NCBI GenBank assembly: GCA_963735595.1
Contig: CAVTLK010000004.1
Location: 544,313-608,312, forward strand
DNA length: 64,000 nucleotides
Source: an uncultured delta proteobacterium
GTDB taxonomy: Bacteria; Desulfobacterota; Zymogenia; Zymogenales; Zymogenaceae
Direction: 5' to 3'
This document shows, in pieces, positions 51,201-57,200 of the stretch (the first letter of the stretch is position 1; each line of letters begins with the position of its first letter). The position numbers are program-made.

Positions 51201-54200
51201 CGGGTTGTCACCGAGCGGGTGATGATAGTCCATGACGGGGCGGCCCGAAAGTTCCTATATCAAATAGACTACCTTACTGTCGTTATCATCGCCCCGTTCG
51301 TCACGGCACACCCGTTCCTCGGCGGCGCCTGCGGTGTCGTGGACCTCCTTCTGCTTGGCTTCTTTATTACCCCACTTGTTCGCGGTCGGAGGAAGGAAAA
51401 CGCGGCCTGAACCCGCTGAGAGGACGTGAGCGCCTCGGGGTCGGCCGCGTTTTAGCAGAGATCCATATCCTTGCGGAACGACGGTAACGGTCGGTCGCCG
51501 GGTGACGATCCTCCCTACTTCCCCATAAAGTGGAAGATAAAGAATCCGAGCAGGACTACGATAGACGCGAAACCAACGACCACTGTTGAGATAATCGCCT
51601 TCATCGGTTCTTTCTTATCGTGCTTTAACACCATTCCCAATAACACGAAGAGCACTATGAAAAGGATGACTTCCAATGCGCTCTTCGTTACCCAGTGATG
51701 GCCGGTAACAGAGGCGAGGAAGCTTTTAAATGAAGCGACGTATTCCGCAATGATAACGACTATAACCGTCACGATCATCGTGATGTTTGCCGACCAGGCC
51801 GCTGCCGAAACCTTGTTTTTCATCACTCTCCTCCGTTAAGGCGTGACAACGTTTCCTGCCGCCAGGGCTGCCCTGGCGCCTACCGCGATGAGAAAACCCA
51901 TCATCGCCATAGAAAAGCCGGTTAGGAAAACGAGGGCCGACAGCATACCGAGCCTCGTTCTGCCCTTTATGGCTATGTCTTTGAAGCTCTTTGTCACGAA
52001 TAGGCTGATCACGACTACTGCGGCCATGAGCGGGATAAACAGAAAAATGTGTTCCTTGGCTTCCATGATAATGCCGTGGGCCCACGCGTATGTCGAGCCG
52101 ATGATGACCGGTTTGACGGTTTTCCCATACGTCGTCACGTAATAATATCCCCCCACGATCCAGCTTACGGAAATCAGGGTCAGTCCCGTGAGGGATACGG
52201 CGCGCGCCCGCTTGAGCCCCTCTTCCTTTGCGTTGATAAGCTCAACGACGACCCAGAGAAAGCAAAGGGCGCCAAGGTCCCCGAGACCCGCGTGCAGGAG
52301 GACATACCAACTGATCTCATTCATTGCTTACCTCCATATCGAACTATGTTAATTGTATCATGCCATATTGGATAAATGTCAAATAGTTTTACGGCGGTCA
52401 TTATAAAGCGGATTGTGGATCAGGCGTTCACTCCGCAGCGGCGGTAATGTGGTTATGCGGCGGGCCCTGATTTGAGAGCCTGACATCCACACCGCGGAGG
52501 CGTCACCCACGGGGCTCGATGAATAGAGATATTTGAGCTATGATAAATAAGAATATGCTTGGAAAAACCGAAATAGTATGATATTACCTGAATACGTACC
52601 CTGCGAGGGAAGAAAGGACTCTTTGCCCGTCGGACCCCCCGAGAATTCCGGCGGTCCTTTTAAATATGATGAAAGTACCGATTATGCAGCGATAAAGTCT
52701 TCACGTGCCAAAACCTTCATATTCATGTTGTCTTACTCCTGTTACCAGACTCTATGGAGGCACAGTATGGAAAAACAAAATCGGTTTCTGACCCTGGCGC
52801 TCATCACCATTCTCACCTGTTGTCTCTTCGCACTGCAGGGATGTGGAGAGAAGACCCGCCCCTCCTTTGATGCCCAGTACGATGTAATCATCATCGGCGC
52901 CGGCGTCGGCGGAATGTCCGCGGCGGCCACGCTGGCGGCCAACGGCCTTAAGGTGTTACTGCTCGAACAGCACCATAAGGTCGGCGGATGCGCGACGAAT
53001 TTCACGCGAGGCGACTTTACCTTCAACACCGCCATGCACCTTTTGGTGGGCGCCGGCGACAGGGTCCCCAACGAGGGACTCAACAAGCTGATTCGGACCA
53101 ACGGCGTCTACGACAAGATGAAGCTCTACGAGCTCCCCGACTACTACCGCTCGATTTACCCGGGGGTAGATTTTCGGGTGCCGAACCGCTGGGATGAACT
53201 GGATACGGCCCTCAAAGAGCGGTGGCCCGAAGAGACCGCCGGTATCGACAAGTTCCACAGGCTTTGCGCCGATCTCTACGACGAGGCCTTTTCCATCAGC
53301 GGAATTTTCCGCAAGAGCGGGTTCGACGCGTTGCTCATAAAGGCCAAAATCCCCTTCAAACAGAAAAACCTCTATGAGTGGAAAGATAGGACCCTGGCCG
53401 ACCTCATGGACGAGTGCTTCACCAACGATGACATCAAGGCGGTGCTCAACCAGACCTGGGTCTATTATGGCGCGCCCGTTTCCGATCAGTCGGCGCTCTT
53501 CTATATGACGGCGACCGACGCCATTATGACCTACGGCACGTACCATGTCTTCGGGACCGCTCAGGCGATGGCCGACGCCTACGCCGCGCGGATTATCGAG
53601 CTCGGCGGTGAGGTCAAGACCGGGACGCTGGTTACCAAGATCATTATCGAAGACGGCCTGGCCCGCGGGATCGAGACCGAGTTCGGCGACACCTACACCG
53701 CCCGGTACGTCATCTGCAATACCGACCCCTACCAGATGGTTTTCAAGCTGATCGGCGAAGAAAATCTTCCGAAAGACTACGTAGAGAAAATCAAGGGGAT
53801 GAAGATCGCCAATTCCCTCTTCGGGGTTTATCTCGGTCTCAATATCGACCTGAAAGCACTCGGATATACGGATACCGAGATCATCTACAGCACCGATAAG
53901 GACAGCGGTAAGATATACGACAGCATGATGAAGGGGGATTTCGCCGACGGCGCGTCGTCCATTTCGATCTACTCGAATTTCGGGGATCCTATCTATGCCC
54001 CACCGGGTAAGTCATGCGTAGTGCTCCACGCCTATTCCGACTATGACGCCTGGCCAAAGGATCGCGACGAATACCAGAAGATGAAGGAAGAAAACGCCTG
54101 GGAGCAGATCAATTTGGCGGCCCGGATCATCCCCGAGCTCGGCGATCCGAGGAATATCGAGGTCATGGAAGTGGTAACACCCCAGAGCCTCGAGGAATAT

Positions 54201-57200
54201 ACGATGAACTATAAGGGCGTCCCGTACGGTTTCTATCTTGACACCAAGCAGTGGGACAAGATCCCCAACGACACGCCCATCGATAACGTATTCATCGCCA
54301 GCAACTGGTCACAGGCATGGTTTGGTATGGGTGCCGGCCAGGTGAACGGATGGCGCGCCGCCCGTTTGGTATTGGACCGTGAAGGCATTCAATAAGGAGG
54401 ACCACATGAAAACAAAGACACTACAGAAAACGGCTTTCGTCTTTATCGTTGCGGTCCTTTTATCGGGATTGGCGGCTATCGCCGCCCTTTCGATAGACTT
54501 CGGCGCCGCTCGCGTTGACCTGGACGATACCACGAAGGCGACCAGCCGATACCTTCCCGTTACCTTCGACCATAAGACGCATATCGAAGGATACGGGATT
54601 TCCTGCGTCACCTGCCACCATACGGAGAAAGAGACGTTCACGTCCGGCTCTACCGCTCGGTGCGGAGCCTGCCATAACGCGGAAGGCGAAATCTCCTTCA
54701 AGGACGCGATGCACAAGCGGTGCGTCGTCTGCCATATCACAGAAGCCGAGGCCGGCAAAAACGCTCCTACAGAGTGCCTGTCGTGCCATACGCAGCGTCC
54801 ATAACACTTGACTCGCGGCCCCCTCGTGCGAGAGGGGGCCGCTTCCTTTGCGTATATCTGTCCGACGACAGCCCGGTACCGGATGATTACGTATACTCCG
54901 GTACTGATGAATAGTAGTATACTCATTGCCCGTTATTGGCCGTTCGCCGGCGGCGAATCCCCACGTTCGCGACATCCGGTTCTGCTGTATCGCCTTGCTT
55001 GACTGAGACAGAGACCACCGATATTCCTGCCTGTATGAAGAGCGGCCCGTAACACTTCGAGAGAGCGGTTCGTTCACGGCGGCCAATCCGCCAGGTAGAG
55101 CGCGTATTTATTTGCCATAGTCCAAAAAAGTATGGTTACGCGAAAAGGCCAATCTCACACAGACGACCTGCCCGATAAAATCCGTGATATCCTGTCCAGG
55201 ATTCCCTCGACGGATTCCATTGCCCTCTGGATAGCCGCCCCGGGACTCACCGAGATACTCTACATAAGCCCGTCCGCCGAAAAGATCTATGGACTTCCGT
55301 ACGCCGAAATGTATAAGAACCCCCGCCTCTGGCTGGAAGCCGGAGGGTTGGGCGATCGTGCGAAAGACCGGGGACCGTCACCCGGAGACGGCGACGGTTG
55401 TTACTGCACGGAACGCTGCATCACGAGGCCGGATGGATCCATTGCCTGGGTACTCGAAAGGACCGGTGCCGTAAGCAACGATCAAGGTGCCGTATCATGT
55501 CTCGTCGGGTTCTCGGAAGATATCACCAAACGGAAGATCAAGGAGACCGAGCTTCTTGAGTCGGAGAAACGTTACCGGGCGCTTGTTGAGACGTCTACCG
55601 ATGGGATAGCCGTTATCCAGGGCGACAGAATCGTATTCTTCAACGGCCTGCTTGTCGAGAAGACGGGATTTAGCCGGGAAGAGCTTTCTAATACTTCGTT
55701 TGACCGGTTTATCCACCCGGACGACCTTCCGATGGTAGTCGACCGTTATACGAGCCGGATGAAGTCGCAGGCCTCCGAGGGGTCCCTTGAATTCCGCGTT
55801 CTCACGAAGGATAATCAGGTTATCTATGCCGAGATCAACGTTGCCCTGACCCAGTGGGAGGGCGAGCCGGCCCTGCTGTGTCTGTTCAGGGATGTAACGG
55901 ACAGAAAAGCGGCCCAGGAAGCGTTGGAGAAATCGGAAAAGCGATACCGTGACCTTGTGGAAGACATCGACGATATAATCTATATTATGAACGACAGCGG
56001 AACGTTTCTCTTTGCGAATGGCGCACTCCTGAGATTTGCAGGACTTGACAGGGACAAGATACGTACTACCAACTTCGTTGACATGATTACCCCGGAATCG
56101 TATGAGCAGGTAAAGGATATCTATAAACGGCAGCTGAGCGGGGAGGACGTAGGCGCTTTCGAGATAAGCTTTAAGACTTGGAATGGAGATATCGTCACGA
56201 TCGAGACCAGGGAGCGCCTCGTCCGGAAAGACGGCCGGGTTGTCGAGGTGCACGGTATCGGCAGAGACGTCACCGAACGGAAACGCGCCGAGCGCGCCCT
56301 CCGGGAGAGTGAAGAGCGGTACCGGAAGCTGGTCGAAGTATCTCCCGACGCGATTATTGTGCACAGCGGCGGTAAGATCGTTTTCGCCAACTCCGCGGCG
56401 GCCCGGCTTATCGGCGCCGCGACACCGGAAGACCTGTCCGGAAGAAATGTCCGGGACTTTATGCATCCCGATTTCATCGCTACCCTTATTGGGCGTATTC
56501 AAACATCAATGAAGGGGGGTGTCCCGGCCCCAATGACGGAAGAGAAATTTATTCGGATCGATGGAACAACGATAGACGGCGAGGCGGTAGCCATGCCCCT
56601 GACGTATGAAGGGGAACCAGCCGTACTTGTTGTCGTCCGGGATATAACCGAGCGTAAGGAAGCCCGGCATGCCCTCGTCCTTCGCGAGCGGGAGCTTAAC
56701 AACGTATTCGAATTTACCGGTACTGCGATGCTTATCGTTGAAGAAGATATGACGATAACGAAATGTAACCACGTATTTGAAGAGCTCGTCGGGTATACGA
56801 AAGAAGAAATCGAAGGCACAATGCGCTGGACGGCTTTTGTCCACCCGGACGAACTGACCCGCATGGTCAATTACCATAGGGCTCGAAGAAGCGGAGATAC
56901 TGCGGCGCCCGCTTCTTACGAGTCCAGGGCTATCGATAAAAACGGAATCGTAAAGCACATTCATATAACCATTGGCTTCGTTTCCGAGACAAGACAAACA
57001 GTTGCCGCGATCCTCGATATCACCGATCGAAAGAGGGCGGAGAATGCGCTCCGAGAATCGGAGGAGAAACTGAGGCACTTATTCGATTCCTCAAAGGACG
57101 TGATATTCCTCTCCACCATAACCGGTTGGTTTTACGACATCAACCGGGCAGGTGAGGAGTTCTTCGGATACAGCCGTGATGAACTGCTCGGACTGGATAC

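What a model noticed while it worked through the whole genome (the two positions that open the first line are those of the whole stretch)
52767..54804. Retinol-saturase-like lipoproteins paired with tetraheme cytochrome c3: candidate periplasmic polyene respiration
A RetSat/CrtISO-family FAD enzyme carries a lipoprotein signal and is encoded next to a tetraheme cytochrome c3; three more copies with two c3 genes lie at C1:100606-106677. These are periplasmic terminal reductases that take electrons from H2/formate through c3 and saturate C=C bonds of carotenoids, retinoids or other polyene lipids. That would give a class described as purely fermentative an unknown anaerobic respiration, run by a family not known as respiratory reductases.
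Evidence so far: g02850 (542 aa, signal ending LQGC) and g02851 (4 CxxCH). A c3 gene lies within 2.5 kb in 7 of 10 related loci and at 3 of 3 copies in G006; the 9 printed N-termini all end their signal in GC. 243 proteins at E<=1e-90, including Desulfomonilia and Desulfobacterales; Amino_oxidase and Cytochrom_CIII are near each other in only 33 of 4916 genomes with both, 6 of them in this order. The genome has cytochrome-b-linked hydrogenase and formate dehydrogenase (family in 9 of 9 relatives) but no Pfam row for NIR_SIR, NrfD, Cytochrom_C552 or phytoene synthase. Cytoplasmic paralogs are paired three times with an FAD/NAD-ferredoxin reductase (g00487-490, g03062-65, g03676-78; calls 84, 194), so the fami [...]
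(Added by a program. Inside this text positions count along the whole contig: contig position 544,313 is position 1 of the stretch shown here. "Call 12" and the like, gene names such as g00115 and contig names such as C1 are that model's own, and its searches are not shown. The text may have been shortened before it was handed on; [...] marks where a part breaks off. The agent that wrote the report below was given it as the finding of a first reader that could run no searches.)

Follow-up and report, generated by a model that had tools for sequence, protein, structure and literature searches.

The report
Exported CrtI-fold flavocytochrome c reductase
An uncultured bacterium encodes a carotenoid-desaturase-like flavin enzyme with an export signal beside a four-heme cytochrome, and about a hundred related proteins carry such a cytochrome fused on, so the pair is likely a new build of electron-transfer enzyme outside the cytoplasm, predicted to add hydrogen to lipid double bonds as an electron sink.

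Summary
In detail: a 542-aa CrtI/CrtD-fold FAD enzyme with a lipoprotein signal, then a tetraheme c3, then a terminator. New here: 104 relatives carry a fused 3-4-heme domain of another type, one carries the same c3 fused, and cytoplasmic relatives are fused to NAD(P)H/FAD/2Fe-2S modules. So the cytochrome is very likely the redox partner. Both cytochrome types share an ApbE-flavinylation-like heptapeptide that 16 control c3s lack. Limits: c3 linkage is 37 of 42 in Zymogenia-type copies but 0 of 51 in the derived clade outside; RetSat kinship was not tested; the same superfamily has cytochrome-coupled dehydrogenases (NicA2/CycN). The genome looks like an anaerobic fatty-acid and glycerol oxidiser (ETF plus membrane Fe-S oxidoreductase), so its hydrogenase and formate dehydrogenase may be outlets rather than donors. 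Best reading: a periplasmic lipid C=C reductase that drains quinol electrons; substrate, direction and energy gain are untested. 'H2 through c3 to carotenoids' is only partly supported. My searches found no paper on this pairing; the scan's one earlier look-alike note concerned a nonsense codon.

The parts
52767..54395 (+). FAD-dependent oxidoreductase of the CrtI/CrtD/CrtISO fold (P0001, 542 aa), His91 subfamily, predicted lipoprotein
   Evidence: model pLDDT 92.8; best structure match 4rep Z 38.4, rmsd 2.6, 472 aligned; His91 in 90-100% of every group
52767..52844 (+). Sec/SPII signal ending LQG-C26 (predicted lipidation); no twin-arginine motif
   Evidence: lipobox Cys in 98 of 119 homologs, signal in 115 of 119
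52896..52913 (+). GxGxxG dinucleotide-binding motif (residues 44-49)
54406..54804 (+). tetraheme cytochrome c3 (P0002, 132 aa): signal peptide, 4 CxxCH, 4 further His (predicted bis-His hemes)
54523..54543 (+). heptapeptide DDTTKAT (residues 40-46), resembling the ApbE flavinylation motif D-x-x-[S/T]-G-A-[S/T] but with K for G; predicted FMN attachment or docking site
   Evidence: 35 of 43 rows of enzyme-linked c3 alignment; 0 of 16 control c3 loci; motif definition PMC12052999
54815..54850 (+). intrinsic-terminator-like hairpin closing the two-gene unit
   Evidence: 1 found; 2.6 expected in shuffles

Best explanation
The two genes encode a CrtI-fold FAD enzyme with a lipoprotein signal and a tetraheme cytochrome c3 that likely act as one periplasmic flavocytochrome, predicted to pass quinol-derived electrons through the hemes to FAD and to saturate a C=C bond of an incoming lipid as an electron sink. 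Shown: gene pair, signals, fold, heme motifs, fusions in relatives. Strongly inferred (about 0.9): the cytochrome is the redox partner and the chemistry is net redox. Inferred (about 0.65): reduction, because bis-His c3 hemes and NAD(P)H/2Fe-2S modules are low-potential donors that can drive C=C saturation but not accept electrons from C-C desaturation (recalled potentials, not measured for these proteins). Inferred (about 0.6): an unsaturated fatty acid or isoprenoid alcohol/acid, with the 3-5 paralogs per genome splitting substrates. Weakly inferred: electrons come from beta-oxidation through ETF, a membrane Fe-S oxidoreductase and menaquinol, reach c3 by a NapH/NapG-like protein, may pass a covalent FMN on the heptapeptide, and FAD is supplied by the EetB-type exporter; this would spare a syntroph-type cell some reverse electron transport to H2/formate.
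For: Fusions: P0123 = signal + enzyme + C-terminal c3 homologous to P0002; 98 of the 120 best P0149 homologs carry 3-4 N-terminal heme motifs, 104 in all, with four invariant distal His; sources name Myxococcales, Polyangia, Ca. Alcyoniella. Cytoplasmic members fused to FAD6/NAD1/Fer2 (P0134, P0158, P0173, P0181, P0250), Pyr_redox_2 (P0164), SCP2 (P0207), thioesterase (P0193, P0232, P0246, P0267). Linkage 37 of 42 Zymogenia-type copies plus the outgroup G185. Heptapeptide in 81 of 104 fusions against 1.45 in shuffles, 19 residues before the first CxxCH in 83 of 98. apbE-NusG_II-PF07456 operon in the genome, PF07456 in 5 of 5 genomes tested; PF07456/EetB exports FAD (PMC9973259); a second NusG_II gene closes the enzyme-c3 cluster in 12 loci. 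Host: 17 acyl-CoA dehydrogenase places, 31 AMP ligases, 19 enoyl-CoA hydratases; FadB-ACAD-EtfBA-Fe-S oxidoreductase-GlpK-GlpA run. NapH/G-like gene in 4 of 5 genomes. Neighbours of exported relatives include phospholipase A1, acyl-CoA ligases, SDRs, SCP2; a 31% cytoplasmic relative lies in an acyl-ACP cluster. Oleate-to-palmitate conversion without methanogenesis is reported (PMC6328780).
Against: No c3 near any of 51 copies of the derived clade (9 at contig edges); G320 has no c3-family match; exported sister-clade genes in other Desulfobacterota show no heme neighbour. Canonical G in only 6 of 104 fusion motifs and K in the c3s; ApbE and EetB are already explained by RnfG. No NapC/NirT in 0 of 5, no NrfD in this genome, no MqnA/D in 0 of 5, MenA-like gene below cut-offs: the quinol-to-c3 link and the quinone are unsettled. 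NicA2-type relatives with cytochrome c run oxidatively. Lipid genes are common in these genomes and neighbour enrichment was not tested. The exported clade and the fusion clade join with FastTree support of only 0.74.
Confidence: 0.4

Rival explanations
1. Periplasmic dehydrogenase: the enzyme oxidises an incoming alcohol, amine or activated lipid and passes electrons to the tetraheme cytochrome and on to quinone or a partner cell, as NicA2/Pnao do with CycN.
For: Same Pfam (PF01593); NicA2 is among the top Foldseek rows; FAO enzymes beside or fused to cytochrome c are shown dehydrogenases (PMC12224317); CrtI itself is a quinone- or O2-dependent desaturase (PMC3382138).
Against: Those partners are mono- or diheme class I/c4 cytochromes with Tat-exported enzymes; here the partner is a predicted bis-His tetraheme and cytoplasmic relatives use NAD(P)H/2Fe-2S modules; the fold is much nearer 4rep (Z 38.4) than amine oxidases (Z 20-26); the host has no evident high-potential acceptor tested here.
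Confidence: 0.2
2. Reductase without energy role: it saturates double bonds to detoxify unsaturated lipids, to make them fit for beta-oxidation, or to remodel envelope lipids.
For: Same anatomy as the best reading; no quinol dehydrogenase travels with the genes; single orphan copies in many genomes.
Against: Three to five exported paralogs per Zymogenia genome with their own cytochromes and a MerR-type regulator resemble the reductase arsenals of respiring bacteria (10.1101/2022.12.26.521950).
Confidence: 0.18
3. One reading: H2 or formate reduce c3, which feeds a terminal reductase for carotenoids, retinoids or other polyenes, giving a new anaerobic respiration.
For: Group 1 [NiFe] hydrogenase and FdnGHI-type genes in the genome; cytochrome b family in 10 of 10 class genomes; no phytoene synthase in 0 of 10; fold closest to a carotenoid desaturase.
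Against: Both donors are cytochrome-b (quinone) coupled; direct periplasmic transfer conserves no energy (textbook reasoning); beta-oxidation/ETF set suggests they are outlets; CrtI catalytic residues not kept and many invariant polar residues (R182, H260, N349, H519) in this clade; no evidence names a polyene.
Confidence: 0.1
4. FADred-dependent isomerase (CrtISO-like, or a fatty-acid double-bond isomerase) whose cytochrome only keeps the flavin reduced.
For: CrtISO is the second-best NCBIfam model (E 1.4e-32); CrtI and CrtISO isomerise with reduced FAD anaerobically (PMC3382138).
Against: A dedicated tetraheme or NAD(P)H/2Fe-2S module, acquired by at least three separate fusions, is more than priming needs; score 113 against a cut-off of 587.
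Confidence: 0.08

Closest known systems
Flavocytochrome c / PF00890 respiratory reductases (fumarate, urocanate UrdA, Cgr2, cinnamate reductases; 10.1101/2022.12.26.521950, passages read)
   Same: Exported FAD enzyme with signal peptide, several paralogs per genome, multiheme or flavinylated electron-entry module, predicted C=C reduction.
   Different: Catalytic domain is CrtI/CrtD fold; PF00890 matches only residues 39-82; no respiratory activity shown; that survey covered only PF00890 and PF00384.
NicA2 / Pnao with CycN and related FAO dehydrogenases (PMC12224317, passages read)
   Same: PF01593 flavoprotein in the periplasm, adjacent or fused to a cytochrome c.
   Different: Tat export, mono/diheme partner, amine oxidation; here Sec or lipoprotein export, tetraheme bis-His partner, carotenoid-desaturase branch. 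The paper has 0 mentions of phytoene, retinol or multiheme.
CrtI phytoene desaturase (4dgk) and CrtD-type gamma-carotenoid desaturase (4rep)
   Same: Closest solved fold: 4rep Z 38.4, rmsd 2.6 A over 472 residues, 18% identity.
   Different: Cytoplasmic, no cytochrome, oxidative; R148/D149/R152 not kept, His91 replaces T55; no phytoene synthase in the class.
Retinol saturase RetSat (PMC5577314, passages read) and CrtISO
   Same: Same wider family by automatic labels on homologs; RetSat is the known C=C reductase of the family and has an additional unknown reaction.
   Different: RetSat is an ER enzyme using NAD(P)H/FADH, no cytochrome; no RetSat sequence was compared here; CrtISO model score is one fifth of its cut-off.
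ApbE-flavinylated extracytosolic carriers (PMC8238504, PMC11334425, PMC12052999, passages read)
   Same: D-x-x-[S/T]-x-A-[S/T] heptapeptide on an exported protein; apbE and EetB-type FAD exporter in the genome.
   Different: S or K at the G position; the site lies on a c-type cytochrome, which the passages read do not list as an ApbE substrate class.

Membership tests
CrtI phytoene desaturase (TIGR02734) / CrtD (TIGR02733) | score over curated cut-off | tested here: not met
   107.6 vs 238.1 and 118.6 vs 549.7 bits
CrtI phytoene desaturase | R148/D149/R152 catalytic residues | tested here: not met
   sequence alignments at about 18% identity put D/A/I or similar there; residues from PMC3382138
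CrtI phytoene desaturase | phytoene synthase in the genome | tested here: not met
   PF00494 in 0 of 10 class genomes, 6 of them at least 90% complete
CrtI/CrtD structural superfamily | three-domain GR2/amine-oxidase fold with FAD motif | tested here: met
CrtISO (TIGR02730) | score over cut-off | tested here: not met
   113.2 vs 586.9
RetSat | orthology by sequence or tree | not tested
   no RetSat sequence was returned by any search; labels on homologs are automatic
RetSat | 13,14-saturation of retinol | not testable with these tools
   needs an assay
Fcc-type flavin reductases (PF00890) | full-length PF00890 catalytic domain | tested here: not met
   match limited to model positions 1-43 of 414
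Fcc-type flavin reductases (PF00890) | export signal and multiheme partner | tested here: met
NicA2-type FAO dehydrogenases | Tat signal and mono/diheme cytochrome partner | tested here: not met
   0 Tat motifs in 119; tetraheme partner
NicA2-type FAO dehydrogenases | electron flow from FADH2 to cytochrome | not testable with these tools
   needs stopped-flow kinetics
Cytochrome c3 (PF02085) | four CxxCH, four distal His, score over cut-off | tested here: met
TmcA acidic c3 (NF045722) | score over cut-off; Tmc complex genes | tested here: not met
   48.5 vs 114; PF02665 in 1 of 5 genomes, not beside it
ApbE substrates | D-x-x-[S/T]-G-A-[S/T] motif | tested here: inconclusive
   6 of 7 positions fit, K for G in P0002; canonical in P0123 and 6 of 104 fusions
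ApbE substrates | covalent FMN on Thr | not testable with these tools
   needs co-expression with cognate ApbE

The most novel reading that the evidence does not exclude
A third superfamily of exported respiratory reductases, beside the molybdopterin and PF00890 flavin reductases: CrtI/RetSat-fold enzymes wired to FMN-tagged tetraheme cytochromes that let lipid-eating anaerobes (Zymogenia, other Desulfobacterota, Myxococcota, Ca. Alcyoniella and kin) use the double bonds of unsaturated lipids as terminal electron acceptors, explaining lipid biohydrogenation in digesters and sediments and uncoupling beta-oxidation from methanogenic partners.
Probability: 0.25. Interest if true: 0.9.

Novelty: new variant of a known kind. 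Interest (0 to 1): 0.68.

Why it matters
Exported respiratory reductases for organic acceptors have been sought in two superfamilies; this points to a third scaffold with more than a hundred flavocytochrome fusions, all mislabelled as phytoene dehydrogenase, prolycopene isomerase or retinol reductase. It gives purifiable candidates for the enzyme that saturates unsaturated lipids in anoxic systems (oleate to palmitate without methanogenesis is reported; I found no enzyme named for it in the passages read), a possible first FMN-tagged c-type cytochrome, and a bacterial handle on RetSat-family chemistry. It also suggests that Zymogenia, described as sugar and amino-acid fermenters without anaerobic respiration, are lipid oxidisers with membrane electron transport.

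Tried and rejected
Complex prediction of enzyme plus c3 was not available, and a model of the fused protein could not be made: binding and heme-to-FAD distance are untested; the Atlas lists pTM 0.77 for whole P0149, which I do not count as evidence. The longer 605-aa ORF from 52578 was rejected: the RBS and all homologs start at 52767. The 3- to 15-heme cytochromes near some non-Zymogenia copies belong to different families and mostly the other strand; rejected as a common partner. A stand-alone form of the N-terminal tetraheme domain was found in 0 of 401 phylum genomes; the one match is a fusion. That domain has no PDB match below E 0.02 and only sub-0.9 Atlas leads to c7/c3_2 clusters. The two divergent membrane genes upstream (51515-52324) occur only in the nearest relative. 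NusG_II was not mentioned in the passages of three flavinylation papers, so its role is open. Literature searches gave 0 papers; others gave only unrelated ones; 71, 78, 81, 115 gave background. Earlier-findings look-ups by words and by genome gave nothing.
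Full report
Observation. The window carries a two-gene unit on the + strand: 52767-54395 (P0001, 542 aa) and 54406-54804 (P0002, 132 aa), each with an RBS, followed by a hairpin at 54815-54842. 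P0001 has a signal ending LQG-C26 and an FAD motif; its best curated models are CrtD, CrtISO and CrtI at one fifth to one half of their cut-offs. The AlphaFold model (pLDDT 92.8) matches the carotenoid desaturase 4rep best (Foldseek E 2.7e-31; Z 38.4, rmsd 2.6). P0002 is a c3 with four CxxCH and four further His. Titles of related records place the genome among Ca. Zymogenaceae. C1:100606-106677 holds three more copies and two c3 genes, frameshifted; other genes on C1 are fragmented too, and relatives mostly hold the cluster intact, so the breaks are probably assembly errors (inference).

Export. Of 120 proteins examined (P0001 and 119 homologs; one lacked the N-terminus), 115 of 119 have a hydrophobic signal, 98 a lipobox Cys, none a Tat motif. 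A separate Tat-exported clade exists and includes a Desulfovibrio inopinatus protein. Sec export needs FAD outside; the genome has apbE, a NusG_II gene and a PF07456 gene in a row, and PF07456/EetB is an FAD exporter subunit (PMC9973259, passages). A second NusG_II gene closes the enzyme-c3 cluster in 12 loci. RnfG already accounts for ApbE here, so this is permissive, not specific.

The cytochrome is the partner. The profile search of 50% representatives (best 150 listed) returned fusions. P0123, the second hit, is signal + enzyme + a C-terminal c3 homologous to P0002. Ten others carry 3-4 CxxCH before the enzyme. Among the 120 best homologs of one of these, 98 have 3-4 N-terminal heme motifs and 22 none; four distal His are invariant in 75 aligned; sources name Myxococcales, Polyangia, Ca. 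Alcyoniella and unclassified Deltaproteobacteria. Cytoplasmic members are fused to FAD6/NAD1/Fer2 or Pyr_redox modules, and this genome has three such pairs as separate genes. The subfamily therefore repeatedly recruits an electron-transfer module matched to its compartment, which argues for net redox chemistry.

Linkage and its limit. In a tree of 94 non-identical enzyme sequences from loci, 37 of 42 Zymogenia-type copies have this c3 within 4.2 kb downstream (two of the five misses are orphan copies, one is at a contig edge, two follow or may follow a c3), as does the outgroup G185. The derived clade outside (support 1.0; 51 sequences, 9 at contig edges) has none. G320 (99% complete) has the enzyme but no PF02085 match. 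Exported sister-clade genes in other Desulfobacterota show no multiheme neighbour. In the phylum sample 13 of 401 genomes match at E 1e-100 or better, 9 of them in the class (only three candidates per genome were scored). So c3 pairing looks ancestral and was lost or replaced; the donor in those genomes is unknown.

A shared heptapeptide. Before the first heme, the linked c3s carry DDTTKAT or a close variant (35 of 43 alignment rows; the 8 misses are one E-for-D variant, five frameshifted or partial pieces and two unrelated cytochromes); G185's has DAVTSAT and P0123 DATTGAT. The unrelated N-terminal heme domain has the DAVSSAT type: D-x-x-[S/T]-[G/S/A/K]-A-[S/T] in 81 of 104 against 1.45 (max 5) in 200 shuffles, at a fixed distance. 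None of 16 control c3 loci, nor the genome's c3 in the heme-maturation operon, has it. It fits the ApbE motif D-x-x-[S/T]-G-A-[S/T] (PMC12052999, passages) except at G, where G-to-A halves flavinylation; canonical G occurs in only 6 of 104. It is either an FMN site or a docking peptide; untested.

Host metabolism. The class was described as fermenting sugars and amino acids with no anaerobic respiration (10.1101/2021.03.22.436540, passages). This genome has 17 acyl-CoA dehydrogenase places, 31 AMP ligases, 19 enoyl-CoA hydratases and 7 thiolases by tblastn with single queries, a FadB-ACAD-EtfBA-membrane Fe-S oxidoreductase-GlpK-GlpA run, Rnf, a group 1 hydrogenase and FdnGHI with cytochrome b subunits. 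From my own knowledge this is the set of syntrophic fatty-acid oxidisers, in which such hydrogenase and formate dehydrogenase make H2 and formate. The quinol-to-c3 link is open: no NapC/NirT (0 of 5), NrfD in 4 of 10 genomes but not this one and, where scanned, in a Phs/Psr-like operon, a NapH/NapG-like gene in 4 of 5. MqnA/D was not found (0 of 5) and the MenA-like gene is under cut-off.

Direction and substrate. Reduction is favoured because bis-His c3 hemes and NAD(P)H are low-potential donors (recalled values). Against it, PF01593 enzymes beside or fused to cytochrome c are proven dehydrogenases, though with Tat export and mono- or diheme partners (PMC12224317, passages), and CrtI is oxidative (PMC3382138, passages). 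His91 is 90-100% conserved in all six groups where CrtI has Thr; CrtI's R148/D149/R152 are not kept; this clade adds invariant polar residues (R182, H260, N349), which hints at a substrate with a polar head (inference without coordinates). SCP2 and thioesterase fusions, phospholipase A1, acyl-CoA ligase and SDR neighbours and an acyl-ACP cluster point to acyl or isoprenoid chains; enrichment was not tested. No phytoene synthase in 0 of 10 genomes means any polyene would come from outside, but nothing singles out carotenoids or retinoids. RetSat is the family's known reductase (PMC5577314, passages); I recall it has a His at the place of His91, not checked.

Comparison and novelty. It works most like the exported PF00890 flavocytochrome reductases (10.1101/2022.12.26.521950, passages) but fails their domain test; it shares a superfamily and a cytochrome partner with NicA2/CycN but fails their export and heme tests; it is not CrtI, CrtD or CrtISO by cut-off. 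Ten literature searches returned no paper on a CrtI/RetSat-fold enzyme with a multiheme cytochrome; the library lacks most subscription journals, and no supplements were read. I file it as a new variant of a known kind. The scan's only look-alike note (e1-1407781) concerns a nonsense codon in a tandem paralog, matching the TAG seen in G007.

Verdict. Interest 0.68.

Noticed in passing
G000:C1:222200-233500 (L300): FadB-like, acyl-CoA dehydrogenase, EtfB, EtfA, 706-aa membrane Fe-S oxidoreductase, glycerol kinase and GlpA in one run; with 17 acyl-CoA dehydrogenase places genome-wide this suggests Zymogenia are anaerobic lipid oxidisers rather than sugar fermenters.
   Followed up: partly
L288-L290 (G008, G002, G009): NrfD-family gene beside a PhsA-like molybdoenzyme, a 4Fe-4S subunit and small membrane genes: a possible thiosulfate/polysulfide reductase in a class described as lacking anaerobic respiration.
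   Followed up: partly
L001:8115-8441 (-) and L195:1095-1457 (+): Exported NusG_II proteins lie both between apbE and the EetB-type FAD exporter and at the end of the enzyme-c3 cluster (12 loci); may be an extracytosolic flavin-loading factor.
   Followed up: partly
P0188 and clade P0139/P0156/P0195/P0203/P0225: A separate Tat-exported clade of the same His91 subfamily, with a member in cultured Desulfovibrio inopinatus: a tractable host for tests.
   Followed up: no
G000:C2:792800-795300 (L178:6772-9267, -): NapH/NapG-like fusion with a Tat-like exported partner (Npun_F2552-like, under cut-off); same pair in G007; candidate quinol dehydrogenase.
   Followed up: partly
window 51515-52324 (-): Two small membrane proteins (162 and 103 aa, several His) with no Pfam or NCBIfam match, divergent from the pair; found only in the nearest relative among fetched loci.
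   Followed up: partly
L274:931-3816 (-), G053: Cytoplasmic member fused to a Fer4_20/Pyr_redox_2 (GltD-like) module, in tandem with further paralogs and an exported copy: another electron-entry module for the subfamily.
   Followed up: no
window 43600-44520 (+): ECF transporter ATPase 8 kb upstream, after an RND permease and apart from the usual EcfA'/EcfT; could serve the EetB-type exporter.
   Followed up: no
G000:C1:1030000-1046000 (L181): Region with the only PF02665 match among five genomes and genes of different-looking composition; possible foreign or mis-binned stretch.
   Followed up: no
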